Of a stretch of 63,074 nucleotides of DNA, positions 823 to 45,409 are shown piece by piece (positions within the stretch are counted from its first letter, which is position 1; each line of letters begins with the position of its first letter). The DNA comes from Candidatus Njordarchaeota archaeon (GTDB taxonomy: Archaea; Asgardarchaeota; Njordarchaeia; Njordarchaeales; Panguiarchaeaceae). The DNA lies in contig JAUQYS020000333.1 in NCBI GenBank assembly GCA_030587585.2, positions 1-63,074 of the forward strand. The letters run 5' to 3'. The notes beneath the pieces are model-generated. The model was not told the origin of the DNA. It saw nothing but the letters and a program-made list of their open reading frames with translations, and did not search any database. The position numbers and the translations under genes are program-made.

Positions 823-2109
823 TTATGTGGATCTGATTATGCTTTGGATGTAGTTTTGGATTTGTTGTGTGTATGTGTTGAGTAGGTATGTGTGTCTTTT
901 TGGTGGCGGTATGTTCATTATGTCTTTTCCTGATATGCGTGGTGGTGGTATTGTTGGGATTTTTTGAAAGATATTTATTACTGCCTGCCAATAATTATTA
1001 TTTATTCCTCGGCAGTAGTTGAATAGTGCTGTTAGGTATGCCATTTGTTTTGCAATGTCTGTATTGTGGTACCGATAATAGAACTTAGATATTAGTGTTG
1101 CTGCCGTTGTTATTGGATTGGGTTGTTGAATATCGGCGTATTGGATTATGCTTAGTATTGGTCTGCGGTATGCTATTGGGAATCTTAATATGTCCATTAG
1201 TTTGTTTATTGCTCGTGTTTTGTTTGGTGTATGCATGTACTCATAATAGAAGAGGAGTGCTAGTTTTATTTCGGGTGGTGCATGTATTGCGTCTGCTCTT
1301 TTCAGAGCTATGATTAGCGGCTGGCTATAATTATATATGTTGCGAAAGCCAAGAATCTTAGCGCAGTCTGTGCCGATAAGATAATAAACAAATGTACTAA
1401 AGTTCTTTTTTGCTGCCTTAACAAGCTCCACAAATATTCGTTCACGAGGAACGGTTCCCAATAGTGCTTTGTTTCGTTTTATTGCTGCAAGTGTATTGGG
1501 ATCAATGTTAAAACCATAAGCCGCAAACCTTATTGCACGTATTATTCTCGCTGGATCCTCCCGTATACGCTGGTCGGGATTTCCAACAAAACGAATTATT
1601 CTTCTCTGCAGATCTCGTTGCCCTCCAACAAAATCATAAATATTTCCATTGATATCCATAGCTAGAGCATTAATAGTAAAGTCTCTTCTCATAACATCAT
1701 TACGAAGACTTTTTTCGAAAGAAACCTGTGGCACCCCCGGCTTATCATATCGCTCTGAGCGATATGTCGCTATCTCAACCACGGTATCGCCCAAAACAAT
1801 AGGAACAACACCAAAAGCATTACCTACTGACAGAACGGGAATACCCATAGACTGAAAAAGTTGCCGAATCTGGCTTGGATGAGCATTTGTGCATATATCA
1901 TAATCATTCGGCTTTTTACCTAAAAGAAGATCTCTGACTGCTCCACCAACAATAAAAGCCTCAAACCCGTTCCTATTCAGAGTCTGCAAAACAAAAATAA
2001 TCTTCCTAGGCACACCAAACCTCCGCACTAGGACAGTTGGCTCAATCTGTGGAACAGGAGAAATACTTTCCTTTTTTGGCATAATTTTTCTTTTCGACAC
2101 AAAGGACAT
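823..2109 (-). CDS. cca: class II tRNA nucleotidyltransferase (CCA-adding enzyme / poly(A) polymerase family), 428 aa
   Basis: Motifs FIVGGAVRDLLLGKKPNDYDI, VEIATYRSERYD, RRDFTINALAMD, GGQRDL..IRFVGNPDQRIREDPARIIRAIRFAA, PRERIFVELVK; start trimmed to ATG 2107-2109 (MSFVSKRK) after GGTG SD. Confidence 0.85.
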   Translation of the reverse strand: MSFVSKRKIMPKKESISPVPQIEPTVLVRRFGVPRKIIFVLQTLNRNGFEAFIVGGAVRDLLLGKKPNDYDICTNAHPSQIRQLFQSMGIPVLSVGNAFGVVPIVLGDTVVEIATYRSERYDKPGVPQVSFEKSLRNDVMRRDFTINALAMDINGNIYDFVGGQRDLQRRIIRFVGNPDQRIREDPARIIRAIRFAAYGFNIDPNTLAAIKRNKALLGTVPRERIFVELVKAAKKNFSTFVYYLIGTDCAKILGFRNIYNYSQPLIIALKRADAIHAPPEIKLALLFYYEYMHTPNKTRAINKLMDILRFPIAYRRPILSIIQYADIQQPNPITTAATLISKFYYRYHNTDIAKQMAYLTALFNYCRGINNNYWQAVINIFQKIPTIPPPRISGKDIMNIPPPKRHTYLLNTYTQQIQNYIQSIIRST

Positions 2110-2171
2110 AAAAACGCACCACACAAGAAAAAGAATAAAAAAAATAATATAAATTTTTGTGTCTGAAAAAA

Positions 2172-2185
2172 TATGTAGGTACATA
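2172..2185. promoter_or_regulatory. 14-bp palindrome TATGTAGGTACATA (copy 1 of 8)
   Basis: Perfect TATGTA/TACATA arms around GG core, 63 nt upstream of cca start, just after stop of 2187-2507. Confidence 0.6.
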
Positions 2186-2186
2186 G

Positions 2187-2507
2187 TTATTGTTTGTGTT
2201 TCTCGGCGGCTCTTTTTGCTGTTTCTAGATTGATTTCGTGTCCGTGTCCGACTGTTCCTTCTTTTCGCCATATTATGTGTGTGTATTTTAGTTTTTTCTT
2301 TGATTGTTCTTCTATGTTTTCGAGTAATCGGGATAGCTCTGTGCGAGTATCTTGTAGTGTTTCTATTATTCTTTTTATGAGTTCTCCTATTATGTCTATG
2401 TTCAGATAATATTCCTTATCTCCTGTTAGTGCTGCATAGTCCGTGGCTTCAAGAAACTCTATTGTTTTTTTCTTGAGCTGTTTAGCATCCTCAAAGATTT
2501 CTGACAA
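2187..2507 (-). CDS. hypothetical protein (106 aa from TTG; may start at ATG 2533-2535 across an A9 tract)
   Basis: ORF; only a TTG start without SD in frame, but GGAGGG + ATG lies upstream and is one base out of frame at homopolymer 2520-2528. Confidence 0.55.
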   Translation of the reverse strand: MSEIFEDAKQLKKKTIEFLEATDYAALTGDKEYYLNIDIIGELIKRIIETLQDTRTELSRLLENIEEQSKKKLKYTHIIWRKEGTVGHGHEINLETAKRAAEKHKQ

Positions 2508-6928: not shown

Positions 6929-7138
6929 TTATATAAGTCCTTCTTCCTGGAGAACACGATATATCACATCATCATTGAATCCCCTGTGCTTCAGCATCTG
7001 ATATATTTCTGATGCGTCTTTGCCAGAGCTTTTTTGTTCCTGGACAATTTTTTTAACTAAAAAGTATGCGTTTTGTTGTTGTTTTTGTCTTCGTATCTCT
7101 CTTGCAAACATTTTTATTCTCTGAGGAACAAGACTCAT
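6929..7138 (-). CDS. hypothetical protein (69 aa)
   Basis: ORF; ATGA overlap with upstream gene. Confidence 0.55.
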   Translation of the reverse strand: MSLVPQRIKMFAREIRRQKQQQNAYFLVKKIVQEQKSSGKDASEIYQMLKHRGFNDDVIYRVLQEEGLI

Positions 7139-10400: not shown

Positions 10401-10541
10401 CGGCCTAATAAGAATATTATACCGCAACAATATATCCTTGTATTCCCTAGGACGAAGCAACATATTATCATTCCTAGCCAGATCTCCCTTCGGCTTCATA
10501 GATATTTTTTCGGTTTTGAGTTTTTGAGGCGACAAACTCAT
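7461..10541 (-). CDS. single-chain two-barrel (fused beta-like/beta-prime-like) RNA polymerase, 1026 aa
   Basis: beta DPBB motif VGDKIMSRTGIKGVV (nt 9156-9194); beta-prime DPBB motif VRKEPVTT...LHPITAEKATIDFDGDTVALFVPPLS (DFDGD nt 8193-8207); GGGTGATG SD. Confidence 0.8.
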   Translation of the reverse strand: MSLSPQKLKTEKISMKPKGDLARNDNMLLRPREYKDILLRYNILIRPWMKKNKLTEWLGISRTEINELLKNERIDKREISELRMHFKKKRQAAMQALENIKREFRPFYLGMNDFLSPEYLGLLPHRKGDPVVPFTERFGDLRMYIFLGDIIRRNLRSLYVKAIEQQKRLYKRIFKSLKEGVPDEAILTAYSITPKELEEAKKIYKELGGDVSKFSVKATPEEKKIAREFGDMVYEKMIPDELKKIRLCPAYASNDKTQRGMQRMICDIDENGKFKHFSPAVYNIPFYNYSPPKRLQIAAHAIAKNKGRMKLLYGEFPKVPAIRNDIAGEGVNLKLKLALAPKLFKKTYGGGVVITKAAAKKFRYVFTSVKKKAYAATEDGFVPEGTYVKRGDPVVTVPLKDVGTGIASVYSPFEGKVHWLGPPKKHVRQYGLVYYTRPYVIIREAELQVGDKIMSRTGIKGVVTDIIPGKEPIIYVNPTDVWADIPEELEKKAKELMLKQADGKKLTEEEKLIIREYKKKLNKRKAALLLEQKMGDGYVFIFPDPEHIAANYASNGVKMSWTFLMGALEKEKPEKLWKQFYFVGKELQQLLKVLHLKLVRDPKDPHKYRLVLDEKEPKPDEYGEVIDYEHTVAWGTKKAKTYKKIYIPLFLKFYYIDHQGQVRKMGIDASMSEAEKKATFHPMRKFILRRIYELMFKPRYMLGIDRHAVAADVAPDEVLLDAETAKALGVKEGDLVTVRKEPVTTSSSILTLKVRIDHSGKYKYVIGLHPITAEKATIDFDGDTVALFVPPLSREFMPKLSKEDLKKLKPVKFEISDADIMTMYKDDEALAKAVREYNIETRRQDDRDIKKYGALRKKMFTLVPLPEKYSIDIARINEALDIEQVMKAKTRDIETYRKLKKVEKELIGKKKSQLLRIFMQKKIKNEAQIIGLELDDRRYLDRMILYSLTAGEKLFKGKEKEKFNKKQIEMELETLNALLTHIKGILKEGGVKGAQARVYKKLIFKVSKRKRHLLKKLNELENGGKK

Positions 10542-22581: not shown

Positions 22582-22944
22582 CTATTTTCTCTTTTTCTTT
22601 CTCCTCGACTTTCTCTTAGATTTTCTTTTTTTCGCCACCTTCTTCACCTCGCCCCAATTTTTATATTTTTCTTCCAGAATCTGATATAGTTTCTTAAACT
22701 TCTTTGTGTCTTTTCTGTTCGGAGCATTCTTTCGCCAAATAAGAAGCAAGCGTACCTGGGCAAGAGCACGCCTAATCCCGTATTTATCGATGAGCGCATC
22801 CGCAAACTTGCTTAGTCGCTTATCAGGAATATCTGATACTTTTTCATATTTCCAACCCAACTCCTTCATAACCCTAGTCATTGCTCCCCTTTGAATGGGG
22901 ATCTGAACAACAGTCTTATTTGTTTTTATAGGCTTAAGACTCAT
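22582..22944 (-). CDS. hypothetical protein with highly basic C-terminal tail (120 aa)
   Basis: ORF; KKVAKKRKSKRKSRRKKKRK tail. Confidence 0.6.
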   Translation of the reverse strand: MSLKPIKTNKTVVQIPIQRGAMTRVMKELGWKYEKVSDIPDKRLSKFADALIDKYGIRRALAQVRLLLIWRKNAPNRKDTKKFKKLYQILEEKYKNWGEVKKVAKKRKSKRKSRRKKKRK

Positions 22945-25351: not shown

Positions 25352-25414
25352 ATTGACACCAAACAAATTTTGCTTTTTGCATATATACTAATATGTTATT
25401 TCTTTTTTAAAAGA

Positions 25415-25428
25415 TATGTATCTACATA
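25415..25428. promoter_or_regulatory. 14-bp palindrome TATGTATCTACATA (TC core)
   Basis: 64 nt upstream of ATG 25351. Confidence 0.6.
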
Positions 25429-25485
25429 GTTTGTTTTTATTTGTACTGAAAGGACTACGAAAAAAAGAAAAAAACCTAAAAAAGA

Positions 25486-31407: not shown

Positions 31408-31413
31408 TTTTCT

Positions 31414-31435
31414 TCACCATATATTAACGAAAAAA
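31414..31435 (-). promoter_or_regulatory. intergenic cassette copy (TTTTTTCGTTAATATATGGTGA)
   Basis: Near-consensus copy upstream of ATG 31407. Confidence 0.65.
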
Positions 31436-31481
31436 GAATAGATATTATGAAAACGAGGATGATCTAATGATATTTTGTGTT

Positions 31482-31955
31482 TTATAAAGTATACTCATTA
31501 CTAATCTCCCATAGTTTGTCTTGAATCCTAAACAATTGCTTCAACAATCCTTTGTATCTCCTACATAACTCGTATAATTCATCATCCATCTTTACTGTTC
31601 GTGTAACAACATTAAGTTCGTTTTGATAGCCGAAAGCCGCCACATTTATAATTATTTTTCTTTCTTCTAGGTCTATCAGTACATGATTCATTGAACGCTC
31701 CCCGATCCTGTCAAGAATTATTTTTTCTATTTTGCCGATCTCCTCCTTCAGTCTAAGGTAACTTTGTTTCAGTTTGCTGTATTCTTTGTATTTTTCTGGT
31801 ACACATTCCCGTAATATATCCTCAGCCGATGGAATTATGCCTTGGTCTAGCAAATGTCGGAATTTTGTCATAACACATTCTTCCCATCTCTTGCGTGTTC
31901 TCGCATAAACTGCTTCTCTCGCTTTTATGTTTTGCTTCTTCGAAACAAAAGACAA
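31482..31955 (-). CDS. hypothetical protein, MSFVSKK-leader family (157 aa, TTG start)
   Basis: GGTGAT + ATCA + TTG TCT TTT GTT TCG AAG AAG; shares 5' leader with five other genes. Confidence 0.6.
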   Translation of the reverse strand: MSFVSKKQNIKAREAVYARTRKRWEECVMTKFRHLLDQGIIPSAEDILRECVPEKYKEYSKLKQSYLRLKEEIGKIEKIILDRIGERSMNHVLIDLEERKIIINVAAFGYQNELNVVTRTVKMDDELYELCRRYKGLLKQLFRIQDKLWEISNEYTL

Positions 31956-32035
31956 TGATATCACCAATACATAAAAACGATAAAAAAATATAAAAAAATA
32001 TGTATGCCATTTTTCGCCTTTATCCCCGAGAAATG
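31945..32035 (-). repeat. about 90-bp promoter/leader repeat, copy A
   Basis: Near-identical to 36060-36148; contains TTTTATATT TATA-like box about 37 nt before the TTG start. Confidence 0.7.
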
Positions 32036-32392
32036 CTATCTCTCTTTTATGAGGTCTTTTATCATCTGCCAGAGTTGCTGTGGTGTTGTTTCGGAAAATA
32101 TGCTCAGATGCTCTACATAATCTTCGCAGTCTGTGGTTAGGTCATAAACAAATGTTCCATAATGATAACTATTGAAGAAAAGTAAGTTCTTATATCTGAA
32201 TGTTCCCTCATAGTTTAGTAATAGCTCCAGTAGTTCTTTTATAGTTTTTGCTTCAGTCGGCTCACCAACAAATCTTTCTGGCATATTCACAATAGCAAAA
32301 ATATCGCCATCAGCAAAATCAACCATACCGCTAAGCCACGGATTAGAATCAACAATCTTCTTAATCTTTTCCAATAGCTCTTTCTTATTCAT
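32036..32392 (-). CDS. hypothetical protein (118 aa)
   Basis: ORF; cassette 32399-32420. Confidence 0.6.
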   Translation of the reverse strand: MNKKELLEKIKKIVDSNPWLSGMVDFADGDIFAIVNMPERFVGEPTEAKTIKELLELLLNYEGTFRYKNLLFFNSYHYGTFVYDLTTDCEDYVEHLSIFSETTPQQLWQMIKDLIKER

Positions 32393-32420
32393 TTGGGTTC
32401 ACCACATATTGACGAAAAAA

Positions 32421-32690
32421 TTAGTGATTAGGACATAGATCAAGATGAAGACGGAGAAAGGACATAACTGATTTTATGCTTGAGGCTTCATGTATAAGCC
32501 TATGTTTGGGATATTGTTCTAAGATGCTACAAGAATAAATTTCGTATTTGTTTTTCTTTTTCATAATTACGATATATGCTATTATCATTCCCTGCGGTGG
32601 AATCGTCACATTTTCGTTACGAAAACCAGAACGATGAGCTTCAATGCCATATTTTCCTAATTCTTGAATTATCTTATCTTGCCACGCCAT
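32421..32690 (-). CDS. hypothetical protein (89 aa)
   Basis: Trimmed to MAWQDKI after GGTGG. Confidence 0.55.
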   Translation of the reverse strand: MAWQDKIIQELGKYGIEAHRSGFRNENVTIPPQGMIIAYIVIMKKKNKYEIYSCSILEQYPKHRLIHEASSIKSVMSFLRLHLDLCPNH

Positions 32691-32811
32691 TTTCAACCAC
32701 CATATTAACAAAATTATATTTCTGCATACTTCTATTCACTTGTTTAATTATATACTCCCTGCCCTGCTCAGAACCTAACGCAAAACCATACCTATAAAGA
32801 TTGCCTGACAT
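32674..32811 (-). CDS. small hypothetical protein (45 aa)
   Basis: ORF not in track; ATG 5 nt after GGTGA of cassette-like 32817-32837. Confidence 0.35.
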   Translation of the reverse strand: MSGNLYRYGFALGSEQGREYIIKQVNRSMQKYNFVNMVVENGVAR

Positions 32812-32845
32812 ATCAATCACCACATATTATCAGATTTTTTTTTTT

Positions 32846-33139
32846 TCACTTCGTTTTTTTTTCTGGGTCGCATATTTTGAATCCCATCTCTGTGAAGATA
32901 TTAACAAGTTCTATCAGCTCTTCTCTGGTGTATTCTTTATAGGTATAGTCCTTCACAAATTCATATAGATCATCATCACCACTCCACACAATAAATTCTG
33001 CTTTCCACTTTTTGGGAATCCTCCTAAACTCGCAGACTAACATTGCATCATCCATTTCCAAACCAAAGCAAAGACCAATATCTATCCAAAACCAAGAACT
33101 CAACATATCGATAAGTTTTTCCTTCAGATCCTCACCCAT
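32846..33139 (-). CDS. hypothetical protein (97 aa)
   Basis: Trimmed 12 nt; cassette 33145-33167. Confidence 0.55.
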   Translation of the reverse strand: MGEDLKEKLIDMLSSWFWIDIGLCFGLEMDDAMLVCEFRRIPKKWKAEFIVWSGDDDLYEFVKDYTYKEYTREELIELVNIFTEMGFKICDPEKKTK

Positions 33140-33174
33140 CAATATCACCATACATGAGTGAAAAAAAGAGAAAT

Positions 33175-33612
33175 TTACAATACTGAGTTAAACTTATTTT
33201 TAAACACTACCCTTTGAGCCGGCGGCAACCGGCTCGTCTCAGGAGTCGTTATTGGACTAACAACAGGATAACCGTACGCCTGGACGCTTATTATACTGCT
33301 TATCAGCAGTACTGGTTTAGAAAGTTCTTTGTTTAATTCTCTTATTTTTTGTACCAATTCAATCCCCTGCTCCTCAGGCACAAATTCTGTCTTTACGATC
33401 GTGACCGTATTTACAGTTTTTATTACTTTTTCTTTTGGTGCAGCTTTGAGAATCTTTGCTAGTTCTACGTTTCCAAGTAAAATGGAGCCGTCGTCAAATT
33501 TCAATTCATGAGGTGATGTGTTTATTAAGTATGCTGAATCAGTCTCAAGAACATCAACATCGAGATTAGCAAATTGCTTAAATAAATTTTTAATTTTGAT
33601 AACCTCGTTCAT
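33175..33612 (-). CDS. hypothetical protein (145 aa)
   Basis: Trimmed 12 nt; cassette 33618-33640. Confidence 0.6.
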   Translation of the reverse strand: MNEVIKIKNLFKQFANLDVDVLETDSAYLINTSPHELKFDDGSILLGNVELAKILKAAPKEKVIKTVNTVTIVKTEFVPEEQGIELVQKIRELNKELSKPVLLISSIISVQAYGYPVVSPITTPETSRLPPAQRVVFKNKFNSVL

Positions 33613-33617
33613 ATTTT

Positions 33618-33640
33618 TCACCAATATTATGCGAAAAAAA
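33618..33640 (-). promoter_or_regulatory. intergenic cassette copy (TTTTTTTCGCATAATATTGGTGA)
   Basis: Upstream of ATG 33612. Confidence 0.65.
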
Positions 33641-34669
33641 TTATGTTTTGTTTAGGAATGCTTGTAGTGCTGCGTTTAGTTCTGGGTCCTCGATTATTTG
33701 TTTTATTTTGTTTAGTGTTTTGGTTTTGTTTTCTATTTGTTGTGCTATTTGTTGTGCTATGTTTTTGGCGTCGTTTTCTGATGTTGCTGCTATTGTTCGT
33801 GCGTTTGGATGTCCGTAGGATTGTCTGCCGAACGGATTGTTTCCGATTAGTTCTTGGATTGTTCTCAGTTCTATGTCCCATCTTCTTATTGCTATAGCTA
33901 CAAATTGATTTGTTTGATTTGATAATGCATAGCCGACGGCGTAGGGAACATCGTTCTCTGTTGCTACTTTTTCTAGAACCTTGAACGCCCATGCTGATGG
34001 TAATTGTTCGTTTACAAGCACCACATTATCAAACAATCCAAAATCATTTACTGATGGGATCTCATCCGCATATATCCGCAGTTTGTCGGTATTATCGGCA
34101 TATCTTATTGCGTCCTCAATATTTTTTCTGACGAGGACATCTAGGCCTAGTGCTGCTTCATAAAGTTCTTTGTATTTTTCTTGGGGGATATACTTCAATA
34201 CGGTTGGGTCTCTATCACAAATTGCCCCAATGAAGACTAGGTCTTTGTTTGGTTCTTTCGATACGAGAAGATCTAGATGATAGGATGACGGCATAAAGTA
34301 TATATTCATAAATGCGGGAAAATTCTTGAGGAACGGTATGCTTGTTTCATGATGATCGATATAGAACATATATACTCTACTCATTGTTCTTGCTTGATGA
34401 AAGATTGTATGCAATGTGGACATCCATTTGTACGGATTCTTAACATCTACCGCAATATCAACAATATAGATATGATTATACTGATAGAACGAAAATATTT
34501 CTGGGATACCAGCAAAACCATTAGGCCCAGTCTCAGGAAACTTCGAAATAATATTGGTCCTAGGAACATCAAATAATTCGGAAAGAAGAACGCCTGCCGC
34601 AACACCATGACCATCAAAATGGCAAACAATAGCCGTTTTCTCAGGAGAAAAATACTTTTTATTTCTCAT
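33641..34669 (-). CDS. DHH family phosphoesterase (RecJ/NrnA-like), 342 aa
   Basis: VCHFDGHGVAAG, YIVDIAVD and FYIDHHETS motifs in the canonical order. Confidence 0.7.
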   Translation of the reverse strand: MRNKKYFSPEKTAIVCHFDGHGVAAGVLLSELFDVPRTNIISKFPETGPNGFAGIPEIFSFYQYNHIYIVDIAVDVKNPYKWMSTLHTIFHQARTMSRVYMFYIDHHETSIPFLKNFPAFMNIYFMPSSYHLDLLVSKEPNKDLVFIGAICDRDPTVLKYIPQEKYKELYEAALGLDVLVRKNIEDAIRYADNTDKLRIYADEIPSVNDFGLFDNVVLVNEQLPSAWAFKVLEKVATENDVPYAVGYALSNQTNQFVAIAIRRWDIELRTIQELIGNNPFGRQSYGHPNARTIAATSENDAKNIAQQIAQQIENKTKTLNKIKQIIEDPELNAALQAFLNKT

Positions 34670-34674
34670 AGTTT

Positions 34675-34697
34675 TCACCATACATTAACGAAAAAAA
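34675..34697 (-). promoter_or_regulatory. intergenic cassette copy (TTTTTTTCGTTAATGTATGGTGA)
   Basis: Upstream of ATG 34669. Confidence 0.65.
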
Positions 34698-34740
34698 GAG
34701 AATAGAGAAATATGTTGGAATATCCTTCAACATAAGAAAG

Positions 34741-34776
34741 AAAAAGGGAAGCGAAGATTTTCCCTTCGGACTTCCC
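34741..34776 (-). terminator. GC-rich 11-bp-stem hairpin followed by T5 (terminator-like or structured RNA)
   Basis: GGGAAGCGAAG-attttcc-CTTCG-ga-CTTCCC at 34746-34776, 50 nt 3' of the RHH gene stop. Confidence 0.4.
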
Positions 34777-34825
34777 TTCATTGAAAAAATAATAATTTTA
34801 CTTTATATTGTTGGAGATATATATT

Positions 34826-35044
34826 TTATATGTATGTTTCTTTTTCTTTCGGCTGGTTCCAAGATATCGGAACCGAGGATAGGATTTTCTGTGCGTCTTG
34901 GCGGATTTCTTTTCTGAATTTTTCTAGTGCAATTCGGATAGCGTAGCGAATAAATTCTGTTCTACTGACAAAATAGCCTTTCTCGCATAGCAAGTCAATC
35001 AAATGAATAATATTTTCAGGAATACGGATTGAAACAACTCTCAT
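34826..35044 (-). CDS. ribbon-helix-helix (CopG-like) transcription regulator (72 aa)
   Basis: MRVVSIRIPENIIHLIDLLCEKGYFVSRTEFIRYAIRIALEKF; trimmed 12 nt. Confidence 0.75.
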   Translation of the reverse strand: MRVVSIRIPENIIHLIDLLCEKGYFVSRTEFIRYAIRIALEKFRKEIRQDAQKILSSVPISWNQPKEKETYI

Positions 35045-35086
35045 TTTTAGCACCATGTATTACCCAAAAAAAAGAAAGAAATGTTA

Positions 35087-35422
35087 TCATCTCCAAGCTG
35101 CCGCAGTTTTTTGTTTGATGTATTCAAAGATTTCTTTCGGAAAATATTGACCAGGAACTCCGGGCAAAGATATTGTTTGTCCATTGCTTATTGCTTGGTC
35201 TACAATTTTCTTTAACATTCTTAGATTATGGCGATGTAGAACCAGTTGCAGCTTCCAATTATTGATACGGTCTTGATTTTTTTCGTTAAATTCGATTTGT
35301 TCTTCATTCAGCGGTTCTATCGGCAGAATACTAATATTATGGAAAAGAAAACTGGTAAATTCTCTGGCTCGTTTGATTTGCTCTTGAGGCGATAAAGACT
35401 TCTTTTTTGACGCAAAAGACAT
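35087..35422 (-). CDS. hypothetical protein, MSFASKKK leader, paralog of 35437-35805 (111 aa)
   Basis: LPGVPGQYFPKEIFEYI shared with neighbour; GGTGAGATAT + ATG. Confidence 0.6.
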   Translation of the reverse strand: MSFASKKKSLSPQEQIKRAREFTSFLFHNISILPIEPLNEEQIEFNEKNQDRINNWKLQLVLHRHNLRMLKKIVDQAISNGQTISLPGVPGQYFPKEIFEYIKQKTAAAWR

Positions 35423-35436
35423 ATATCTCACCACTA

Positions 35437-35805
35437 TTAGGACTTATTTTTTTGTTTCTCTATTTTATCCCAATATTCATTCCATTTTTTTCGTATATAA
35501 ACAAAAATTTCTTTTGGAAAATACTGTCCGGGCATACCCGGCAAGGTAGGCCACATACCATGACTAAAACACCAATCCACTATTTGTTTTAGTTTGTTTA
35601 TATCGTGCCTGTTTTTAACAAGCTGAATCGCCATCTGACGAAGAATAGTGTCTTCGTTCTTTATAAAAAAATTATATGCTGCTTCGTCGTCAGGATCTAT
35701 CGGACCAATGGAAGTGTGATATATCAAATAATTAGGAAATGGCTCTTTTTCTAAAGTAACACCATTTTCTTTTTTTATATTTTTCTTTTTGGACACAAAA
35801 GACAT
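35437..35805 (-). CDS. hypothetical protein, MSFVSKKK leader (122 aa)
   Basis: GGTGAGGAGG SD + ATG TCT TTT GTG TCC AAA AAG AAA; LPGMPGQYFPKEIFVYI. Confidence 0.6.
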   Translation of the reverse strand: MSFVSKKKNIKKENGVTLEKEPFPNYLIYHTSIGPIDPDDEAAYNFFIKNEDTILRQMAIQLVKNRHDINKLKQIVDWCFSHGMWPTLPGMPGQYFPKEIFVYIRKKWNEYWDKIEKQKNKS

Positions 35806-35812
35806 AACCTCC

Positions 35813-36070
35813 TCACCAGATAGATAATAGACTTCTCCTAAATGCTTGCATCATCTTCATACGGTTAAATTCCGTTAGCTCTGCTCTCGCCTCTTTTATA
35901 TCTTTACATGGTTTTTGGAAAAAAATGTGGCCAGATGCGTTCTGGATCACAAAAAAGTATTTACCATTTTTCTGTATAATCTCAGCGATCAAGCCGCCCC
36001 AAGAGGACGATCCTATTACTGTTTCATCCTTCCTTTTTTTGACGCCCTTTTTTCTAGACACAAAAGACAA
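35813..36070 (-). CDS. hypothetical protein, MSFVSRKK leader, paralog of 36526-36783 (85 aa, TTG start)
   Basis: GGTGATATCA + TTG; VIGSSSWGGLIAEIIQKNGKYFFV similar to paralog. Confidence 0.55.
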   Translation of the reverse strand: MSFVSRKKGVKKRKDETVIGSSSWGGLIAEIIQKNGKYFFVIQNASGHIFFQKPCKDIKEARAELTEFNRMKMMQAFRRSLLSIW

Positions 36071-36242
36071 TGATATCACCAATACAAAAAACGATAAAAA
36101 ATATAAAAAAATATGTATGCCATTTTTCGCCTTTATCCCCGAGAAATGATAATTCCGTTCTGTTCGCAAAGATGCCTCGTTCGCATAGACGATCGATAAT
36201 ATAAATAACTTCCCTAGGAAGACGAATCGAAACAACCTGCAT
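36054..36242 (-). pseudogene. truncated RHH gene (N-terminal strand and helix 1 only), interrupted by repeat copy B
   Basis: MQVVSIRLPREVIYIIDRLCERGIFANRTE parallels 34826-35044, then runs into the promoter/leader repeat. Confidence 0.4.
36060..36148 (-). repeat. about 90-bp promoter/leader repeat, copy B
   Basis: Near-identical to 31945-32035. Confidence 0.7.
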
Positions 36243-36283
36243 TTTTTTGCACCATATATAGCCCAAAAAAAGCATATCTACTG

Positions 36284-36436
36284 TTAGCGGCTTTCTTTAT
36301 GATCATATTTCGTATGGATATACTCATACAATATATCCCGAACTGTTCGGCATATAATATAAACCATTAGAAGATAACACACCGCCTCAAAAAAACCAGC
36401 AACAGAAGTCAAAACCGCAGCCACCAAAAGATCCAT
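36284..36436 (-). CDS. small membrane protein (50 aa)
   Basis: ORF not in track; GGTGGTGGT + ATG; hydrophobic core. Confidence 0.35.
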   Translation of the reverse strand: MDLLVAAVLTSVAGFFEAVCYLLMVYIICRTVRDILYEYIHTKYDHKESR

Positions 36437-36525
36437 ACCACCACCACAAAAAAAGATGAAACTGGCTTTTTTTATTTGCTCTTGCTACAATATTTTTTTA
36501 TTTTTTGGTCCAAAGACATCCAACT

Positions 36526-36783
36526 TCACCACATAAATAATATCCCTCTCCGCCTCGCAAGAGCCATCCTCATACGGTTGAACTCAGCTAACTCTGACCT
36601 TGCTTCCTTCAAGTTCTTACATGGTTTTTTATCATAAATAAAACCCGTTGCATCTCTAACAACAAAAAAGTACTTGCCGTTTTCTTGTATTATTTCGGCG
36701 ATCAGATTACCAAACGAAGAGGATCCTATGACTACTTCTCCTCTTTTTCTTTTTATATCCTTCCTCTTCGAAACAAAAGACAA
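36526..36783 (-). CDS. hypothetical protein, MSFVSKRK leader (85 aa, TTG start)
   Basis: GGTGATATCG + TTG; paralog of 35813-36070. Confidence 0.55.
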   Translation of the reverse strand: MSFVSKRKDIKRKRGEVVIGSSSFGNLIAEIIQENGKYFFVVRDATGFIYDKKPCKNLKEARSELAEFNRMRMALARRRGILFMW

Positions 36784-36855
36784 CGATATCACCAATACAA
36801 AAACGATAAAAAAAATATTTAAAAACAAGTATGTATGACGCTGCGCATAAGAACT

Positions 36856-37744: not shown

Positions 37745-38599
37745 TTATTGTTTCTGCGATATATCATTGCGATAACTAAGGTATAGACGCCATACTCTAT
37801 CTGGATGCGGTTTCTTTTTGCCATGTTTTTTTACTTCTATTCGAACCAGCTTTGCGATCAGCGGCATTGCTTTTTTTGGATTAAAAAAGTTTTCGCCAAG
37901 TTCTATGTGTGCTTTGTTTATGGCTCCGAGTATTTCGCTATTTGGTAATTGGTCTGGAGGATATTTTTCTAGTTCGGGTTTCCATTTTGCGAAGAATTGT
38001 GCTTCATAATTCTTTATTACTACTCCCTCGTGTTTACTAAATTTTTTTGCTAATGCGACAAGTTCATCAAAGCTGCGTGGTTCTCCAGTAACGAACTCAA
38101 CCGAAATATTACTGATCGGTCCAGATCGCCATTTGTCTGGCTCAACAAATCTTTTTTCGGAAACACTAAACACATCAAAGATTCTTAGGTCCCATTCGTA
38201 CATCCAGTCCTTGTGGATCCTCATAGGAGTATTTTTATATCCAAATAGTTCTGCAAAAACAATAAACTCATTTTTTTCCATCCATTCATAAAGAGAGTCT
38301 ATTGTTATGTCGGCCACCGCTGGATTATAGGAATTATTTATTGCTTCGATGAATCCTCTGATAAACTGTGGCGTGGCTACAAGTTTTCTCCGAGAAGAAA
38401 TTATTAAGTATCCCTCACGAGCAATAAGCCGAATATTAGAACCATCAAACTTAGGCTCAAAATAAAGCACACCACGAAGCCTATCATCATACTTATACTT
38501 CTCCACATAATCAATATCGGGATAAGAAACACCGATACGAGAGATAATATCCCGAATCCTCGGCGGAACCTCTTGTTCACTCATCGGAATATTAACCAT
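37745..38599 (-). CDS. ATP-dependent RNA/DNA ligase-like nucleotidyltransferase (284 aa)
   Basis: Motif I EPKFDGSNIR (KxDG), FAELFG, EGVVIKN, FAKWKP in covalent nucleotidyltransferase order. Confidence 0.7.
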   Translation of the reverse strand: MVNIPMSEQEVPPRIRDIISRIGVSYPDIDYVEKYKYDDRLRGVLYFEPKFDGSNIRLIAREGYLIISSRRKLVATPQFIRGFIEAINNSYNPAVADITIDSLYEWMEKNEFIVFAELFGYKNTPMRIHKDWMYEWDLRIFDVFSVSEKRFVEPDKWRSGPISNISVEFVTGEPRSFDELVALAKKFSKHEGVVIKNYEAQFFAKWKPELEKYPPDQLPNSEILGAINKAHIELGENFFNPKKAMPLIAKLVRIEVKKHGKKKPHPDRVWRLYLSYRNDISQKQ

Positions 38600-38707: not shown

Positions 38708-38783
38708 TGGTCGCCCCGGAGGGATTTGAACCCTCGCACACCGGGTTACAGCCGGCCGCTCTACCAAACTAAGCTACGGGGCG
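38708..38783 (-). tRNA. tRNA-Tyr: tRNA-Tyr (anticodon GTA), archaeal/eukaryal type, CCA encoded
   Basis: Hand-folded cloverleaf: acceptor CGCCCCG/CGGGGCG (C1-G72), D arm GCTT/GAGC, anticodon arm GCCGG-CTGTAAC-CCGGT, 4-nt variable loop, T arm GAGGG-TTCAAAT-CCCTC, A73, CCA. Confidence 0.9.
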
Positions 38784-38798: not shown

Positions 38799-39656
38799 TT
38801 ATCCCAAAAAAAGTGTAGAAAAAGATTCCAAAATTATTTTATTCGAATCTATCTCATCATATAGGAGAAAGGCTCTAGGCTCAAAACATTTATCATCTGA
38901 AAAAGGGATTAGTGGCTCTATTTGCGCTTGACTATCAAGCTCACTCATCCACCGCAACAATTTTTCATACACCACTATGCATCCTTTTATTTTTCCTTCC
39001 ACTTTTTCGGACATTGGAGGCTCATACAGTAACTCAAAAAGCTGTGTAGAGATCTCCCAATAATTATACATTGTTCGAAAGAATGCTTCTTTATTCAGAA
39101 ACGGACAGAAAAGACAGTTGCCGCTATGTTTTATTTTGCTGTATAGCGGATTTTGGGGGAGCCTTCTTTTTTCTATGTAGGTACATATTTCTTTTTTGGA
39201 CCATTCTGCTATTGGTGCTATGGCCCAAGACCGCCACAGATCAACGTATTGGTATTCTTTTATTAATTCGTATCGTTTTTGTCTATCGCTTCTTTTTACA
39301 CCCGTTATCATCAAAGATTTGGGATATTCTCTGGCTACTTGCCGCCAGACATCATATTTATGTCTTTGAGCACACCATCTCATCCCTGTGATATATGGAA
39401 AGCCCTTTTGTCTGAAATTCACGAATAAATTTTTATCTAGCCACGCAATTAGAAGATTTAAGTCATATTGTTCACAAATATCTTTGACATATTCTGTACA
39501 TTCGGGCGCTGTGTTTCCCTTTATGGGAGTGTAGAGAACGACAAATTTGTCTTTAGGAATACTCCTCGCAACAAGGTCAAGAACAACAAGAGAATCCTTG
39601 CCGCCACTAAACAAAACAAAAATATTATTGAATTTTCTTGTGTAGTGTCGTATCAT
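38799..39656 (-). CDS. PAPS reductase / PP-loop ATP pyrophosphatase family protein (285 aa; alternative start 39701)
   Basis: VLFSGGKDSLVVLDL PP-loop, C-terminal CLFCP cysteine pair; ORF-track N-terminus overlaps the upstream gene and was trimmed. Confidence 0.8.
   Translation of the reverse strand: MIRHYTRKFNNIFVLFSGGKDSLVVLDLVARSIPKDKFVVLYTPIKGNTAPECTEYVKDICEQYDLNLLIAWLDKNLFVNFRQKGFPYITGMRWCAQRHKYDVWRQVAREYPKSLMITGVKRSDRQKRYELIKEYQYVDLWRSWAIAPIAEWSKKEICTYIEKRRLPQNPLYSKIKHSGNCLFCPFLNKEAFFRTMYNYWEISTQLFELLYEPPMSEKVEGKIKGCIVVYEKLLRWMSELDSQAQIEPLIPFSDDKCFEPRAFLLYDEIDSNKIILESFSTLFLG
39174..39187. promoter_or_regulatory. 14-bp palindrome TATGTAGGTACATA (intragenic copy)
   Basis: Exact copy inside the PAPS-reductase-like gene. 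Confidence 0.5.
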
Positions 39657-43284: not shown

Positions 43285-43306
43285 CGATCACCTCGATCTA
43301 ACAAAA

Positions 43307-43320
43307 TATGTAGATACATA
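43307..43320. promoter_or_regulatory. 14-bp palindrome TATGTAGATACATA (GA core)
   Basis: Between cassette 43355-43376 and ATG 43284; lies inside a 22-codon mini-ORF 43281-43349. Confidence 0.6.
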
Positions 43321-43738: not shown

Positions 43739-45409
43739 TTATATTTTGATTCCGAGCCCAAGTTTCTTAGCTATTAAATCAACGATCTCGGAATCACCCG
43801 AATATTTTCTTGCAATAGACACATATTCACTAGTTAATTTCTGTCTTTCACCCCGATCTATAGTGACCCTCCGTATTGATTCCTCAAAGTGATTCATGCA
43901 TATCTGAATATTTCCGCTTGTTTCCATATCTTCTAGGGCCAAATCGAAAGCCATCTGGACCACAGCAGCTATATCTCCCCCATGATAATACTCAGTTCTT
44001 CTCGCCAATTCCTCAAAATCGACATCATCAGCAAGCGGCAATTTTCTTTTTACCATTGTGTGTACCCTAAATATTTCTTTTCTTGCTTCCTGGTCGGGAT
44101 ATAGTACTGGAATAATGGCGTCAAACCTTCCTCGTCTCAATAATGCTTGCTCAATTTGCTGTGGATAGTTGCATGTAGCTACGATAAGACTTCTTCTCTT
44201 CTCGTCCGCTAGCCAAGTGTTAAGCATACTAACAACTCTTATATCGACAATATGGCTTGACGCTCTCGTTCTTTGCGGAGCAAGACCTTCCAACTCATCG
44301 AATACCACGACTACTGGTGCTATTGCTTCTATCGCTCTTATTAATCTGCGTAGATTTCTCTCCGTCTCGCCTAACCATTTACTTCCGAACATCGAGAAAT
44401 CAATGAATATATATGGATATCCTAATTCGCCCGCTATCGCTTTACAAAAATGAGTTTTACCCGTACCCGGAGGACCAATAAACACAAATCCTCTCGGCAA
44501 TTCTACATTAAACTTCTTCAATAGATCCCTATATTTTAGCCTCAAAGTTTTTCGCTTAAAATATTCTTTTAGATAAGCATATCCACCAACATGACTAAAA
44601 TCATACTCTGGCATCTTCAGCTCCAGCCCATACGCTGAAGCAAATATATTCTTTCTTTCTCTCAGAATCGCATCATATAGAGATTTCTGAGTCTTCATAG
44701 AAGCTATAGCATTTAGAAAAACTCTGCGAAGCTGATAAGGCCAAAGACCTGAAGTAATATCTTTTAGGTATTCTATATCAATATTTTCCAATGCTTCTAC
44801 TTCGGCACCTATTTTTTGCATTGCTTCTTTCATTGTTTTTATCCAATTCATTATTAGGCTCTTTCTTTCTCGTTCTATTGCCATTGGTGCCTCTATTGTT
44901 GTCGTCATAGTTAGCAATTCCGGTTCAAAATATGCATATCTGTCGGGAGCAACAATAACAAGAAAATTCTTTTGCATTTTGATTACGTGAGAATATCTAT
45001 GCACGAAAAGAAGAAAATTTGTTGTTTTCTCCGGATTAACTAACGGTCTTTCCTTTACGGCTGGGAGAACACAAATAAACAATGTCTCTTTCATAGACTC
45101 CGTTAAGTTCTTTTCAAGCCACTCGAAAAGATCGGCAACTTCGTATAGATCGACAGTATAGGGAACTAATCGTATTGAACCATCCGTAGAATCTCGCCGA
45201 AAGATTTTCTGCGTATCAAGAAAAACAACTAAAACCTGTTTAAATACTATCTCTTTAGAGCTGGAAAGCAATTCTGGCAATACTGTGAGTATTTGTAGAT
45301 ATCGCAAAGGATCAAAACACTCAATTAGCGCAACTGACGATGAATACATAGCATGCGCCACAGGAACGAGATACTTTATAGATAGCTGATTAAGATCTGA
45401 ATGCAGCAT
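43739..45409 (-). CDS. classical AAA+ ATPase (Cdc48/FtsH/Vps4-type single AAA module) with novel N-terminal domain, 556 aa
   Basis: Walker A GPPGTGKT, Walker B VVVFDELE, second region of homology ATCNYPQQIEQALLRRGRFD. Confidence 0.9.
   Translation of the reverse strand: MLHSDLNQLSIKYLVPVAHAMYSSSVALIECFDPLRYLQILTVLPELLSSSKEIVFKQVLVVFLDTQKIFRRDSTDGSIRLVPYTVDLYEVADLFEWLEKNLTESMKETLFICVLPAVKERPLVNPEKTTNFLLFVHRYSHVIKMQKNFLVIVAPDRYAYFEPELLTMTTTIEAPMAIERERKSLIMNWIKTMKEAMQKIGAEVEALENIDIEYLKDITSGLWPYQLRRVFLNAIASMKTQKSLYDAILRERKNIFASAYGLELKMPEYDFSHVGGYAYLKEYFKRKTLRLKYRDLLKKFNVELPRGFVFIGPPGTGKTHFCKAIAGELGYPYIFIDFSMFGSKWLGETERNLRRLIRAIEAIAPVVVVFDELEGLAPQRTRASSHIVDIRVVSMLNTWLADEKRRSLIVATCNYPQQIEQALLRRGRFDAIIPVLYPDQEARKEIFRVHTMVKRKLPLADDVDFEELARRTEYYHGGDIAAVVQMAFDLALEDMETSGNIQICMNHFEESIRRVTIDRGERQKLTSEYVSIARKYSGDSEIVDLIAKKLGLGIKI

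What the first reader, a model, noticed from the sequence alone, without database searches (positions are those of the whole stretch)
31932..36783. Six unrelated genes share the same first eight codons, M-S-F-(V/A)-S-K-(K/R)-K
The sequence (A/T)TG TCY TTT GYG TCN ARR ARR AAR opens six genes: the CCA-adding enzyme (2086-2109), 31482-31955, 35087-35422, 35437-35805, 35813-36070 and 36526-36783. Three use TTG after GGTGATATC(A/G) and three use ATG. The downstream proteins fall into at least four unrelated families. A degenerate stub (ATG TCT TTG GAC CAA AAA ATA AAA AAA followed by an early stop) follows 36526. Conservation across non-homologous bodies points to a portable 5' module. Candidate roles are an initially transcribed or translated enhancer, a target for a regulator or small RNA, or an N-terminal tag such as a virion-incorporation or degradation signal.
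Basis: seen in the sequence. Interest (0 to 1): 0.65.

Follow-up and report, generated by a model that had tools for sequence, protein, structure and literature searches.

The report
Shared N-terminal tag on unrelated viral proteins
In an uncultured, probably archaeal virus, six proteins from four unrelated families (one a captured tRNA CCA-adding enzyme) all begin with the peptide MSFVSKKK, which is conserved as a peptide rather than as DNA and so looks like an address label whose reader is still unknown.

Summary
Six minus-strand genes start with (A/T)TG TCY TTT GYN TCN ARR ARR MAR, encoding M-S-F-(V/A)-S-(K/R)-(K/R)-(K/Q); none is expected by chance. Every site sits 5-7 nt after a GGTG(A) Shine-Dalgarno, and NCBI and JGI gene calls use the same starts. 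With the first 16 residues removed, only two paralogous pairs remain similar, giving four families. CCA-enzyme homologues lack the tag.

Two layers exist:
- **DNA layer.** A 94-nt promoter-RBS-start cassette is copied at 97% identity in front of two unrelated genes. A third copy is diverged. A truncated RHH gene and a decayed gene stub mark the rearrangements.
- **Peptide layer.** Conservation is confined to +1..+24. Variation falls on third codon positions (6/7 versus 4/14). The tag also persists on operon-internal genes that lack the cassette. AlphaFold2 models place it on disordered tails.

The four promoter-proximal tagged genes share a promoter architecture found nowhere else in the genome. 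A second tag, MSLxPx(K/R), marks the virus's own single-chain RNA polymerase and two small proteins, and it recurs in related viruses.

My best reading is a protein-level sorting or recognition tag spread by a mobile 5' cassette, like the T4 capsid-targeting sequence. What reads the tag is inferred, not shown.

The parts
2086..2109 (-). Tag codons (MSFVSKRK) opening the class II CCA-adding enzyme gene 823-2109.
   Evidence: locate the site. Pfam PF01743 and PF12627 hit the protein. Homologues lack the tag, and the viral protein has an 18-33 aa N-terminal extension.
31932..31955 (-). Tag codons (TTG start; MSFVSKKQ) opening the 157-aa ORFan gene 31482-31955.
   Evidence: locate the site. No Pfam or PDB relative was found.
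35399..35422 (-). Tag codons (MSFASKKK) opening the 111-aa gene 35087-35422. The gene is operon-internal.
   Evidence: locate the site. It is a 45%-identical paralog of the 122-aa gene.
35782..35805 (-). Tag codons (MSFVSKKK) opening the 122-aa gene 35437-35805. The start lies 8 nt after the stop of the 85-aa gene.
   Evidence: locate the site. The family has no homologue outside this genome among 1.84 billion representative proteins. Residues 1-37 are predicted disordered.
36047..36070 (-). Tag codons (TTG start; MSFVSRKK) opening the 85-aa gene B, 35813-36070.
   Evidence: locate the site. It is a 62%-identical paralog of gene A.
36760..36783 (-). Tag codons (TTG start; MSFVSKRK) opening the 85-aa gene A, 36526-36783.
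   Evidence: locate the site. In the AF2 model residues 1-9 have pLDDT below 50, followed by a four-strand meander and a helix.
31942..32035 (-). Copy 1 of the promoter-RBS-start cassette, CATTTCTCGGGG...GGTGATATCATTGTCTTTTGT. It begins directly after the stop codon of gene 32036-32392.
   Evidence: Alignment. blastn gives 94 nt at 96.8% identity to copy 2. Family D6.
36057..36148 (-). Copy 2 of the cassette, fused in frame behind a truncated RHH gene copy.
36770..36835 (-). Diverged third copy of the cassette: CATACATA box, TTTAAAT, T-run, GGTGATATCG, TTG.
2110..2189 (-). Promoter region of the CCA gene. It has the same order of elements (TATGTACCTACATA, TTTATAT at -44, T-run, GGTG) and is possibly homologous to the cassette.
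   Evidence: Local alignment to the cassette copies gives z of about 2, rank 3-4 of 80 upstream regions.
36472..36519 (-). Decayed stub, ATG TCT TTG GAC CAA AAA ATA AAA AAA ... TAA. It is the remnant of a 122-aa-family gene start after 85-aa gene A.
   Evidence: It has the same 'W-stop, 6-8 nt, ATGTCTTT' junction as the 35813/35805 pair.
36056..36242 (-). Truncated RHH gene copy (MQVVSIRLPREVIYIIDRLCERGIFANRTE...) that runs into cassette copy 2.
   Evidence: Compare with the intact RHH gene.
34826..35044 (-). Intact ribbon-helix-helix regulator gene. It closes the operon 85B-122-111-RHH driven by cassette copy 2.
   Evidence: Pfam RHH_1 and RHH_8 hits. Gene order.
10521..10541 (-). Second tag class, MSLSPQK, opening the 1026-aa single-chain RNA polymerase gene 7461-10541.
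   Evidence: The motif is conserved in orthologues on L124-L131.
7118..7138 (-). Second tag class, MSLVPQR, opening the 69-aa gene 6929-7138.
   Evidence: Its similarity to the RNA polymerase is limited to 9 residues.
22924..22944 (-). Second tag class, MSLKPIK, opening the 120-aa gene 22582-22944. The protein has a polybasic C-terminus.
43739..45409 (-). Cdc48/PAN-like AAA+ ATPase with a novel 260-aa N-terminal domain. It is a candidate reader of N-terminal tags by inference only.

Best explanation
MSF(V/A)SK(K/R)K is a short linear peptide tag at the extreme N-terminus of six accessory proteins. It is selected and read at the protein level.

The tag was distributed to unrelated gene bodies by a duplicating and recombining 5' cassette. 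The cassette consists of an ACATA box, an A/T-rich TATA-like box at about -40, a T-run, a GGTGA Shine-Dalgarno, the start codon and the first codons. After distribution, purifying selection kept the peptide, including on genes that no longer carry the promoter part of the cassette.

The tag marks one co-regulated set of proteins for a common fate. The set contains a tRNA CCA-adding enzyme and three ORFan families, transcribed from four promoters of a single architecture. One of these promoters drives an operon that ends in an RHH regulator.

The fate I consider most likely is recognition by one viral partner that sorts these proteins, probably into the virion or another virus-made compartment so that they travel with the genome. 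This is how the capsid-targeting sequence of phage T4 loads diverse internal proteins.

Shown here: the tag, its codon-phased conservation, the cassette copies, the shared promoter class, the disordered location, and a second tag class in the lineage.

For: 1. Six sites against 0 expected. All six are genuine starts.
2. Four unrelated bodies. CCA-enzyme homologues lack the tag, and the viral enzyme carries an extra N-terminal tail.
3. Nucleotide identity between families is 0.84 and 0.69 in +1..+12 and +13..+24. It falls to 0.31-0.46 immediately upstream and downstream. Six of 7 third positions vary against 4 of 14 others (p = 0.024). There are 35 synonymous and 20 mostly K/R codon differences. 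Codon 5 uses all four TCN codons.
4. Genes 35805 and 35422 keep the tag although their upstream DNA is unrelated and they are operon-internal.
5. Cassette copy: 94 nt at 96.8% identity with abrupt edges, one edge inside a truncated RHH gene. The stub shows segmental duplication. A third shared 5' end, MNKKELLEK, on two dissimilar genes shows that 5'-end swapping is general in this genome.
6. Only the four promoter-proximal tagged genes combine an ACATA box at -49..-76, TTTATAT or TTTAAAT at about -40, a T-run and GGTG.
7. The tag lies on low-confidence, disordered N-terminal tails in AF2 models.
8. Precedent within the lineage: a second tag, M-S-L-x-P-x-(K/R), heads the viral RNA polymerase, a 65-89 aa protein and a polybasic 120-aa protein. 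It is encoded by different codons in genomes of 39-55% GC. It changes together in one genome, L128, where the two proteins begin TARP and TASP.
9. [quoted passage not shown]
Against: - No reader has been identified. No virion proteome or expression data exist, and the host is unknown.
- No prohead protease, HK97 capsid, portal or terminase was detected, so a T4-like scaffolding core cannot be assumed.
- The tagged genes lie in an accessory region with an RHH regulator, which would also suit early, non-structural proteins.
- Three of the six copies are related by recent DNA duplication. Independent observations are therefore about four, and the codon-position statistic is modest.
- The MSFVSKKK tag was not seen in the roughly 20-kb pieces available from related viruses. 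No long-term conservation of this particular tag is demonstrated.
- TTG start codons suggest low protein output, unlike the abundant T4 internal proteins.
Confidence: 0.45

Rival explanations
1. The tag is an N-terminal degron or unfoldase handle. A Cdc48/PAN-type AAA+ machine grips it so that this set of accessory, possibly early proteins is remodelled or destroyed on schedule. The machine could be the virus's own 556-aa ATPase or the host's.
For: - The selection is at the peptide level and the tag sits at the tip of a disordered tail, as in the best explanation.
- The genome encodes a classical-clade AAA+ ATPase whose best matches are CDC48 and proteasome-activating nucleotidase, preceded by a 260-aa domain of unknown function.
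- The tagged genes share one promoter class and an RHH-terminated operon, typical of a transient regulatory class.
- From my own knowledge, not tested here: mixed hydrophobic and basic N-terminal motifs are a known class of ClpX recognition signals.
Against: - No link between the ATPase and the tag has been shown.
- The second tag class sits on the viral RNA polymerase and on a DNA-condensing-like protein. Programmed destruction is not an obvious benefit for those.
- No protease partner was identified.
Confidence: 0.2
2. The tag acts during translation. The nascent octapeptide or its codons boost initiation or early elongation, as the MSKIK/SKIK peptide does in E. coli, and perhaps compensates for the weak TTG starts.
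For: - The position immediately after the start codon and the Ser + Lys-rich composition fit this idea.
- SKIK-type effects are peptide-dependent rather than codon-dependent (PMC10192921), so peptide-level conservation is compatible.
- Half of the tagged genes use TTG.
Against: - Predicted structure at -15..+36 is not weaker than in other genes. It is if anything stronger: -7.5 against -5.7 kcal/mol, p = 0.09.
- About 85 other genes manage without the tag.
- Conservation of F-V-S, and of an 8-12 residue pattern, is more than known translation-enhancing tetrapeptides need.
- A lineage-wide second tag on the polymerase, which changes together with the tag of a neighbouring small protein in one genome, is hard to explain by ribosome effects.
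Confidence: 0.12
3. The peptide has no function of its own. The functional, mobile unit is the promoter-RBS-start cassette, and the first codons are carried along whenever the cassette is fused in frame to a new gene.
For: - The 94-nt near-identical cassette copy ends inside codon 5.
- The CCA promoter has the same element order.
- A truncated RHH gene, a stub, and another shared 5' end (MNKKELLEK) show frequent 5'-end recombination in this genome.
- This parallels the PeSL cassettes of T4-type phages (PMC2839356).
Against: - The tag outlasts the cassette. Between the CCA copy and the others, and on the two operon-internal genes, upstream identity is at background (0.31-0.40) while the 24 coding bases stay at 0.70-0.82.
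- Changes are concentrated at synonymous sites.
- In the 111/122 paralog pair, 45% identical overall, 7 of 8 tag residues are kept while residues 9-30 have diverged.
Confidence: 0.12
4. The conserved 24 bases are a nucleic-acid operator. They would be a DNA site for a repressor such as the RHH protein, or an RNA site for a translational repressor or small RNA of the T4 RegA type, overlapping the start of co-regulated genes.
For: - The tagged genes form one promoter class, and the operon encodes an RHH regulator.
- A motif of 14 invariant bases out of 24 could serve as a binding site.
Against: - Conservation starts exactly at the start codon and is phased with codons.
- No complementary sequence to the tag core stands out elsewhere in the genome; the other loose matches are scattered T-rich stretches.
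- The consensus RNA fold is negligible.
- The two operon-internal genes would not need a promoter-proximal operator.
Confidence: 0.06

Closest known systems
Capsid targeting sequence (CTS) of phage T4 internal proteins (IPI, IPII, IPIII, Alt)
   Same: A short N-terminal peptide is the only thing shared by a diverse, fast-evolving set of accessory proteins of one virus. In T4 it gives them a common destination, the prohead core, and they are delivered with the DNA (PMC3012670). Here too the tagged set is made of ORFans plus an enzyme, in a plastic accessory region.
   Different: - There is no sequence similarity to the T4 CTS.
- No HK97-type capsid, scaffold or prohead protease was detected in this genome.
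- The host is probably archaeal.
- Cleavage and packaging are untested.
- A second, different tag marks the viral RNA polymerase.
PeSL mobile regulatory cassettes of T4-type phages (promoter-early stem-loops)
   Same: Repeated intergenic cassettes run from the stop codon of one gene through a promoter and Shine-Dalgarno to the start codon of the next. They are concentrated in ORFan-rich hyperplastic regions and mediate modular shuffling (PMC2839356; PMC4122927). The 94-nt cassette here has the same extent and context, and it is flanked by rearrangement scars.
   Different: - The cassette here extends into the coding region, and the encoded peptide is itself under selection.
- No sigma-70 promoter or G+C-rich stem-loop lies in the cassette.
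- Promoter activity is not tested.
Translation-enhancing N-terminal peptides (MSKIK/SKIK tag)
   Same: A few residues directly after the initiator Met, rich in Ser and Lys, act at the peptide level rather than through codon usage (PMC10192921).
   Different: SKIK is an engineered tool in E. coli, with no natural regulon known. The tag here is longer, has an invariant S-F-V/A-S core, and is restricted to 6 of about 91 genes.
Cargo-loading and encapsulation peptides of encapsulins and bacterial microcompartments (own knowledge)
   Same: Short terminal peptides on flexible linkers direct unrelated enzymes into one protein shell.
   Different: The sequences and positions differ, and no shell protein was recognised here. 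This comparison was not tested.

Membership tests
T4-type capsid targeting sequence | A short N-terminal peptide shared by otherwise unrelated proteins of one virus. | tested here: met
   Six proteins in four families share residues 1-8 (up to 16) only.
T4-type capsid targeting sequence | Sequence resemblance to the T4 CTS, and removal by a prohead protease at a (L/I)-x-E site (own knowledge of the family). | tested here: not met
   By inspection, MSFVSKKK has no resemblance to the T4 leader. No prohead protease, scaffold, portal or HK97 capsid family was hit by Pfam, PHROGs or NCBIfam in about 50 proteins scanned. Cleavage itself cannot be tested here.
T4-type capsid targeting sequence | Tagged proteins are physically present inside virions. 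| not testable with these tools
   This needs particle proteomics. The virus is known only from metagenomes.
PeSL-type mobile regulatory cassette | A repeated cassette spanning upstream stop codon, promoter, SD and start codon, lying in an ORFan-rich plastic region with insertion and deletion scars. | tested here: met
   94 nt at 96.8% identity at 31942-32035 and 36057-36148, plus a diverged copy. Scars are a truncated RHH gene and a gene stub. The tagged families look like ORFans: the 122/111-aa family has no homologue outside this genome, and the 157-aa and 85-aa proteins have no family or solved-structure match.
PeSL-type mobile regulatory cassette | A sigma-70-like early promoter plus a stable stem-loop terminator within the cassette. 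| tested here: not met
   The consensus scan finds no sigma-70-like site or terminator-like hairpin inside the cassette copies. The cassette instead carries an A/T-rich TATA-like box and T-runs.
Sec, Tat or lipoprotein signal peptide | A positively charged n-region followed by a hydrophobic core of about 7-15 residues (own knowledge). | tested here: not met
   Only two hydrophobic residues (F-V) precede a long basic and polar stretch. True signal-peptide-like N-termini in this genome look different.
RegA-type translational operator (RNA site shared by many mRNAs) | A conserved RNA motif spanning the ribosome-binding region and start codon, independent of reading frame. | tested here: not met
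   Conservation begins at the start codon, upstream identity is at background, and variation is codon-phased. There is no meaningful shared fold.
Translation-enhancing nascent peptide (SKIK-like) | Raises protein output when placed directly after the initiator Met, independently of codon choice. | not testable with these tools
   Only indirect evidence is available: the start regions are not less structured than in other genes.

The most novel reading that the evidence does not exclude
This lineage of uncultured archaeal viruses uses at least two N-terminal 'zip codes' to sort its proteins. The viruses carry an archaeal-type tRNA-Tyr, and relatives encode PriL and PolB. One related contig is binned with an Asgard 'Njordarchaeota' genome.

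- MSLxPx(K/R) marks the virus's own single-chain two-barrel RNA polymerase and DNA-associated small proteins, and is conserved across the lineage.
- MSFVSKKK marks a plastic cargo set of accessory or counter-defence proteins, including a captured CCA-adding enzyme.

New cargo would be recruited simply by fusing it to a mobile promoter-RBS-tag cassette. This would be the first protein-sorting code described for an archaeal virus, and a natural plug-and-play system for loading proteins.
Probability: 0.3. Interest if true: 0.8.

Novelty: new variant of a known kind. Interest (0 to 1): 0.6.

Why it matters
If the tag is an address label, it gives a handle on an unknown step of archaeal virus biology: how accessory enzymes and the viral RNA polymerase are routed during infection.

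It would also define a cargo list of ORFans likely to act together, for instance as co-delivered counter-defence or tRNA-repair factors. Those ORFans are otherwise impossible to annotate.

It would show how a virus recruits a newly captured gene into a functional class in one recombination step, by fusing it to a cassette that supplies promoter, ribosome-binding site and tag.

A minimal eight-residue tag would be a useful tool for loading proteins in archaeal systems.

If the peptide turns out to be a passenger, the locus is still a clear non-T4 example of modular shuffling by regulatory cassettes.

Tried and rejected
**Searches for relatives carrying the tag**
- megablast against phage records found nothing.
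- Two IMG/VR pattern hits were chance matches inside an unrelated conserved gene.
- An SD+tag pattern in IMG/VR gave 0 hits.
- Related-locus scans with the RNA ligase, the 346-aa protein and the RNA polymerase in IMG/VR found nothing.

**Function of the tagged proteins**
- Pfam, PHROGs and PDB sequence searches found nothing significant.
- The word-index search for the 122-aa protein returned only itself.
- The exhaustive profile search of 1.84 billion representatives returned only the two paralogs.
- AF2 models followed by Foldseek against the PDB gave no match below E = 0.1.

**Ideas tested and rejected**
- Wrong start codons: rejected.
- An mRNA-unfolding 'ramp': rejected.
- A conserved RNA structure: rejected.
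- A complementary partner sequence in the genome: none stands out.
- The CPBP/Rce1-like protease as the tag processor: set aside. The structural-module proteins carry C-terminal membrane anchors, which are that family's more usual substrates.
- An NLS-like reading of the basic stretch: considered but not pursued, because nothing supports a compartment with import machinery.

Full report
**1. The observation**

A degenerate 24-mer search finds exactly six matches, all on the minus strand. The start codons are at 2109, 31955, 35422, 35805, 36070 and 36783. No match occurred in 100 shuffles, and a six-frame peptide scan finds no further copy.

The encoded N-termini are:
- MSFVSKRK (gene 2109)
- MSFVSKKQ (gene 31955)
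- MSFASKKK (gene 35422)
- MSFVSKKK (gene 35805)
- MSFVSRKK (gene 36070)
- MSFVSKRK (gene 36783)

A looser basic continuation, x-I/V-K-K/R, follows in four of them.

All six codons are credible starts. Each lies 5-7 nt after GGTG(A/C), which is the spacing used by about 70 other genes of this genome. Two independent annotation pipelines, JGI and NCBI, call products of 428, 157, 111, 122, 85 and 85 aa from exactly these codons. The longer ORF for the CCA enzyme (start 2271) is an artefact, because another gene in a different frame occupies that DNA and ends at about 2190.

**2. Unrelated bodies**

The two 85-aa proteins are 62% identical and the 111-aa and 122-aa proteins are 45% identical. All other pairs are similar only in residues 1-16. 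With those residues removed, no cross-family similarity remains.

Gene 823-2109 is a class II CCA-adding enzyme (PF01743, PF12627). None of its 120 best homologues, at most 46% identical, carries the tag. The viral enzyme has an extra 18-33 residue N-terminal tail that begins with the tag.

The 122/111 family has no homologue outside this genome among 1.84 billion representative proteins. The 157-aa and 85-aa proteins have no family or structure match.

**3. Two layers of sharing**

DNA level. A cassette, CATTTCTCGGGGATAAAGGCGAAAAATGGCATACATA-T7-ATA-T6/7-ATCG-T5-(A)TGTATTGGTGATATCA-TTGTCTTTTGT, is present at 31942-32035 and 36057-36148. The two copies are 94 nt long and 96.8% identical, far closer than the genes around them.
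- The left edge is abrupt. In one copy it follows the stop codon of gene 32036-32392. In the other it interrupts a truncated copy of an RHH gene.
- The right edge lies in codon 5 of the tag.
- A diverged third copy precedes gene 36783.
- After 85-aa gene A there is a decayed stub (36519-36472). It reproduces the junction 'stop, 6-8 nt, ATGTCTTT' seen between 85-aa gene B and the 122-aa gene, so the block [cassette-85-122] was duplicated and one copy decayed.
- Another pair of dissimilar genes (starts 32392 and 59601) shares MNKKELLEK and the DNA around it. Recombination at gene 5' ends is therefore a general habit of this genome.

Peptide level. Between families, ungapped nucleotide identity is 0.84 in +1..+12 and 0.69 in +13..+24. 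It is 0.31-0.46 in the flanking windows.
- Six of 7 third codon positions vary against 4 of 14 first and second positions (Fisher p = 0.024).
- Across families there are 35 synonymous and 20 non-synonymous codon differences, the latter mostly K/R.
- Codon 5 uses all four TCN codons.
- Genes 35805 and 35422 keep the tag although they are operon-internal and have unrelated upstream DNA.
- In the 111/122 pair, 7 of 8 tag residues are identical while residues 9-30 have diverged.

This pattern is what purifying selection on a peptide produces. It is not what a nucleic-acid site or a neutral passenger would produce. The caveat is that only about four of the six copies are independent.

**4. Context**

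The four tagged genes that have their own promoter (2109, 31955, 36070, 36783) are the only genes in the genome that combine all of the following:
- a (C/T)(A/T)ACATA box at -49..-76;
- TTTATAT or TTTAAAT at about -40;
- a T-run and GGTG.

The CCA upstream region aligns with the cassette at z of about 2. The other two tagged genes lie downstream of 36070, in an operon that ends with an intact RHH regulator. The tagged proteins are therefore one co-regulated set.

AlphaFold2 places the tag on low-confidence, presumably disordered tails. These are residues 1-9 of the 85-aa protein (model pLDDT 75) and residues 1-37 of the 122-aa protein (model pLDDT 64).

**5. Tests of RNA-level ideas**

Predicted folding energy of -15..+36 is not weaker for tagged genes: -7.5 against -5.7 kcal/mol, p = 0.09. 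The only shared RNA fold is a 6-bp A-U hairpin worth -2.4 kcal/mol. No complementary partner sequence stands out in the genome.

**6. What the element is**

The window is a complete metagenomic contig (JGI 3300005099, also in NCBI). About 91 of 100 ORFs lie on one strand, and there is no match in phage records.

It encodes a tRNA-Tyr with a short variable arm, a C1:G72 pair, A73 and an encoded CCA. These are the archaeal/eukaryal features (identity rules from my own knowledge).

It also encodes a 1026-aa protein carrying, in order:
- a beta-like motif, GDKIMSRTGIKGVV;
- a beta-prime catalytic motif, IDFDGD.

Weak Pfam and PDB hits to Rpb2 domain 6 and Rpb1 domain 2 support this. The protein is a single-chain two-barrel RNA polymerase.

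Its only relatives, 35-45% identical, lie on metagenomic contigs that also carry PriL and family B DNA polymerase genes. One further relative lies on a 4-kb contig binned in a 'Candidatus Njordarchaeota' genome.

**7. A second tag in the lineage**

In the window, three proteins begin MSLSPQK, MSLVPQR and MSLKPIK and share nothing else:
- the RNA polymerase;
- a 69-aa protein two genes downstream of it;
- a 120-aa protein with a polybasic C-terminus.

In four related viruses (five contigs; L124 and L126 are two copies of one), the polymerase and the small downstream protein again share this N-terminus. A fifth relative, L131, begins its polymerase with the same motif, but the contig stops before the small gene. 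The shared N-terminus uses different codons (Ser AGT/AGC/TCT; Leu TTG/CTT/CTC/CTG; Pro CCN) in genomes of 39-55% GC. In one genome both proteins have changed together, to TARP and TASP.

So short N-terminal peptides shared by unrelated proteins are a conserved, protein-level feature of this virus group. MSFVSKKK itself was not seen in the roughly 20-kb pieces available from relatives.

**8. Interpretation**

The best-supported reading is a protein-level N-terminal tag that was attached to unrelated genes by a mobile promoter-RBS-start cassette and then kept by selection. It labels one regulon of accessory proteins for recognition by a common partner.

I favour sorting, into the particle or another virus-made structure. 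Three reasons:
- The closest precedent for this exact pattern is the T4 capsid-targeting sequence on diverse internal defence proteins (PMC3012670).
- The sister tag marks the viral polymerase and a DNA-condensing-like protein, both plausible virion-core cargo.
- The tagged set consists of fast-evolving ORFans plus an RNA-repair enzyme, next to an RNA ligase and the tRNA gene.

This last step is inference. My confidence in the whole statement is 0.45, and about 0.7 for 'peptide-level tag' alone.

Rivals, in order:
- an unfoldase or degron handle, given that the genome encodes a Cdc48/PAN-like AAA+ ATPase;
- a nascent-peptide translation effect (PMC10192921);
- a functionless passenger of the cassette, PeSL-like (PMC2839356);
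- a DNA or RNA operator.

**9. Novelty**

The kinds are known: shared targeting leaders, and mobile regulatory cassettes. This tag, its combination with a cassette that reaches into the coding region, and its occurrence in an archaeal-type virus are not described in anything I could find. I classify it as a new variant of a known kind, with interest 0.6.

Noticed in passing
window 7461-10541 (-): A 1026-aa protein carries a beta-like GDKIMSRTGIKGVV motif and then a beta-prime IDFDGD catalytic motif. Weak Pfam and PDB hits to Rpb2 domain 6 and Rpb1 domain 2 support this. It is a single-chain two-barrel RNA polymerase in a probably archaeal virus. Only six relatives were found: five in a 5.8-billion-protein database and one on a 'Njordarchaeota' MAG contig. 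No annotated phage record has one. To my knowledge no archaeal virus RNA polymerase has been described.
   Followed up: partly
window 10521-10541, 7118-7138, 22924-22944 (-); L124, L126, L128, L129, L130, L131: A second shared N-terminal motif, M-S-L-x-P-x-(K/R), occurs on the RNA polymerase, a 65-89 aa protein two genes downstream and a 120-aa polybasic protein. It is conserved across related viruses with different codons. In L128 it changes in both proteins together, to TARP and TASP.
   Followed up: partly
window 38708-38783 (-): The tRNA-Tyr(GTA) has a short variable arm, a C1:G72 pair, A73 and an encoded CCA, and is followed by T8. This is the archaeal/eukaryal type. It sits next to an RNA ligase (37745-38599) and a PAPS-reductase-like gene. 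Together with the CCA enzyme this suggests a tRNA-repair or counter-defence kit. The CCA enzyme is class II (the bacterial/eukaryal type) and lacks the HD domain.
   Followed up: partly
about 35-45 gene starts on the minus strand, e.g. 34670-34700, 46316-46346, 31408-31440: A generic gene-start cassette, T6-8-CG-TTAATATA-TGGTGA-N5-ATG, precedes about half of the genes. It could combine an oligo-T terminator, a promoter for the viral polymerase with its transcription start at GGTGA, and the Shine-Dalgarno. Relatives have their own version (AAATTTTTG... in L124).
   Followed up: no
window 2162-2196, 22965-22985, 25405-25439, 43297-43331, 53304-53338, 39164-39207, 56844-56887, 60076-60110: The palindrome TATGTA-NN-TACATA recurs 20-75 nt upstream of several genes, including the CCA gene. 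Half-sites (CATACATA) lie in the tag cassettes. It may be an operator for the RHH regulators (34826-35044 and 22934-23200).
   Followed up: no
window 32364-32419 and 59573-59628 (-): Genes starting at 32392 and 59601 share MNKKELLEK and about 56 nt of DNA at 79% identity, but their protein bodies are otherwise dissimilar. This is a third case of a shared 5' end.
   Followed up: partly
window 15396-22285 (-): A run of proteins carries N-terminal signal-like segments and C-terminal membrane anchors with short basic tails. Next to them lies a CPBP/Rce1-like (myxosortase-like) intramembrane protease at 21620-22285. This suggests a membrane-containing virion and processing of C-terminal anchors.
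   Followed up: no
window ~2190-2533 (-): The gene upstream of the CCA enzyme appears split by a frame change at an A9 run just after its ATG (2533). This could be a sequencing error, a pseudogene or programmed slippage.
   Followed up: no
L128 1660-6045: The RNA polymerase orthologue P0124 is 1461 aa long and carries faint intein and LAGLIDADG hits. An intein appears to be inserted in the viral polymerase.
   Followed up: no
window 43739-45409 (-): A Cdc48/PAN-like single-domain AAA+ ATPase has a 260-aa N-terminal region of unknown function.
   Followed up: partly
window 62457-62610 (+ strand as listed): An imperfect 18-28 nt periodic T/G-rich repeat lies inside the first gene of the contig (61593-62855) (family D5).
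   Followed up: no
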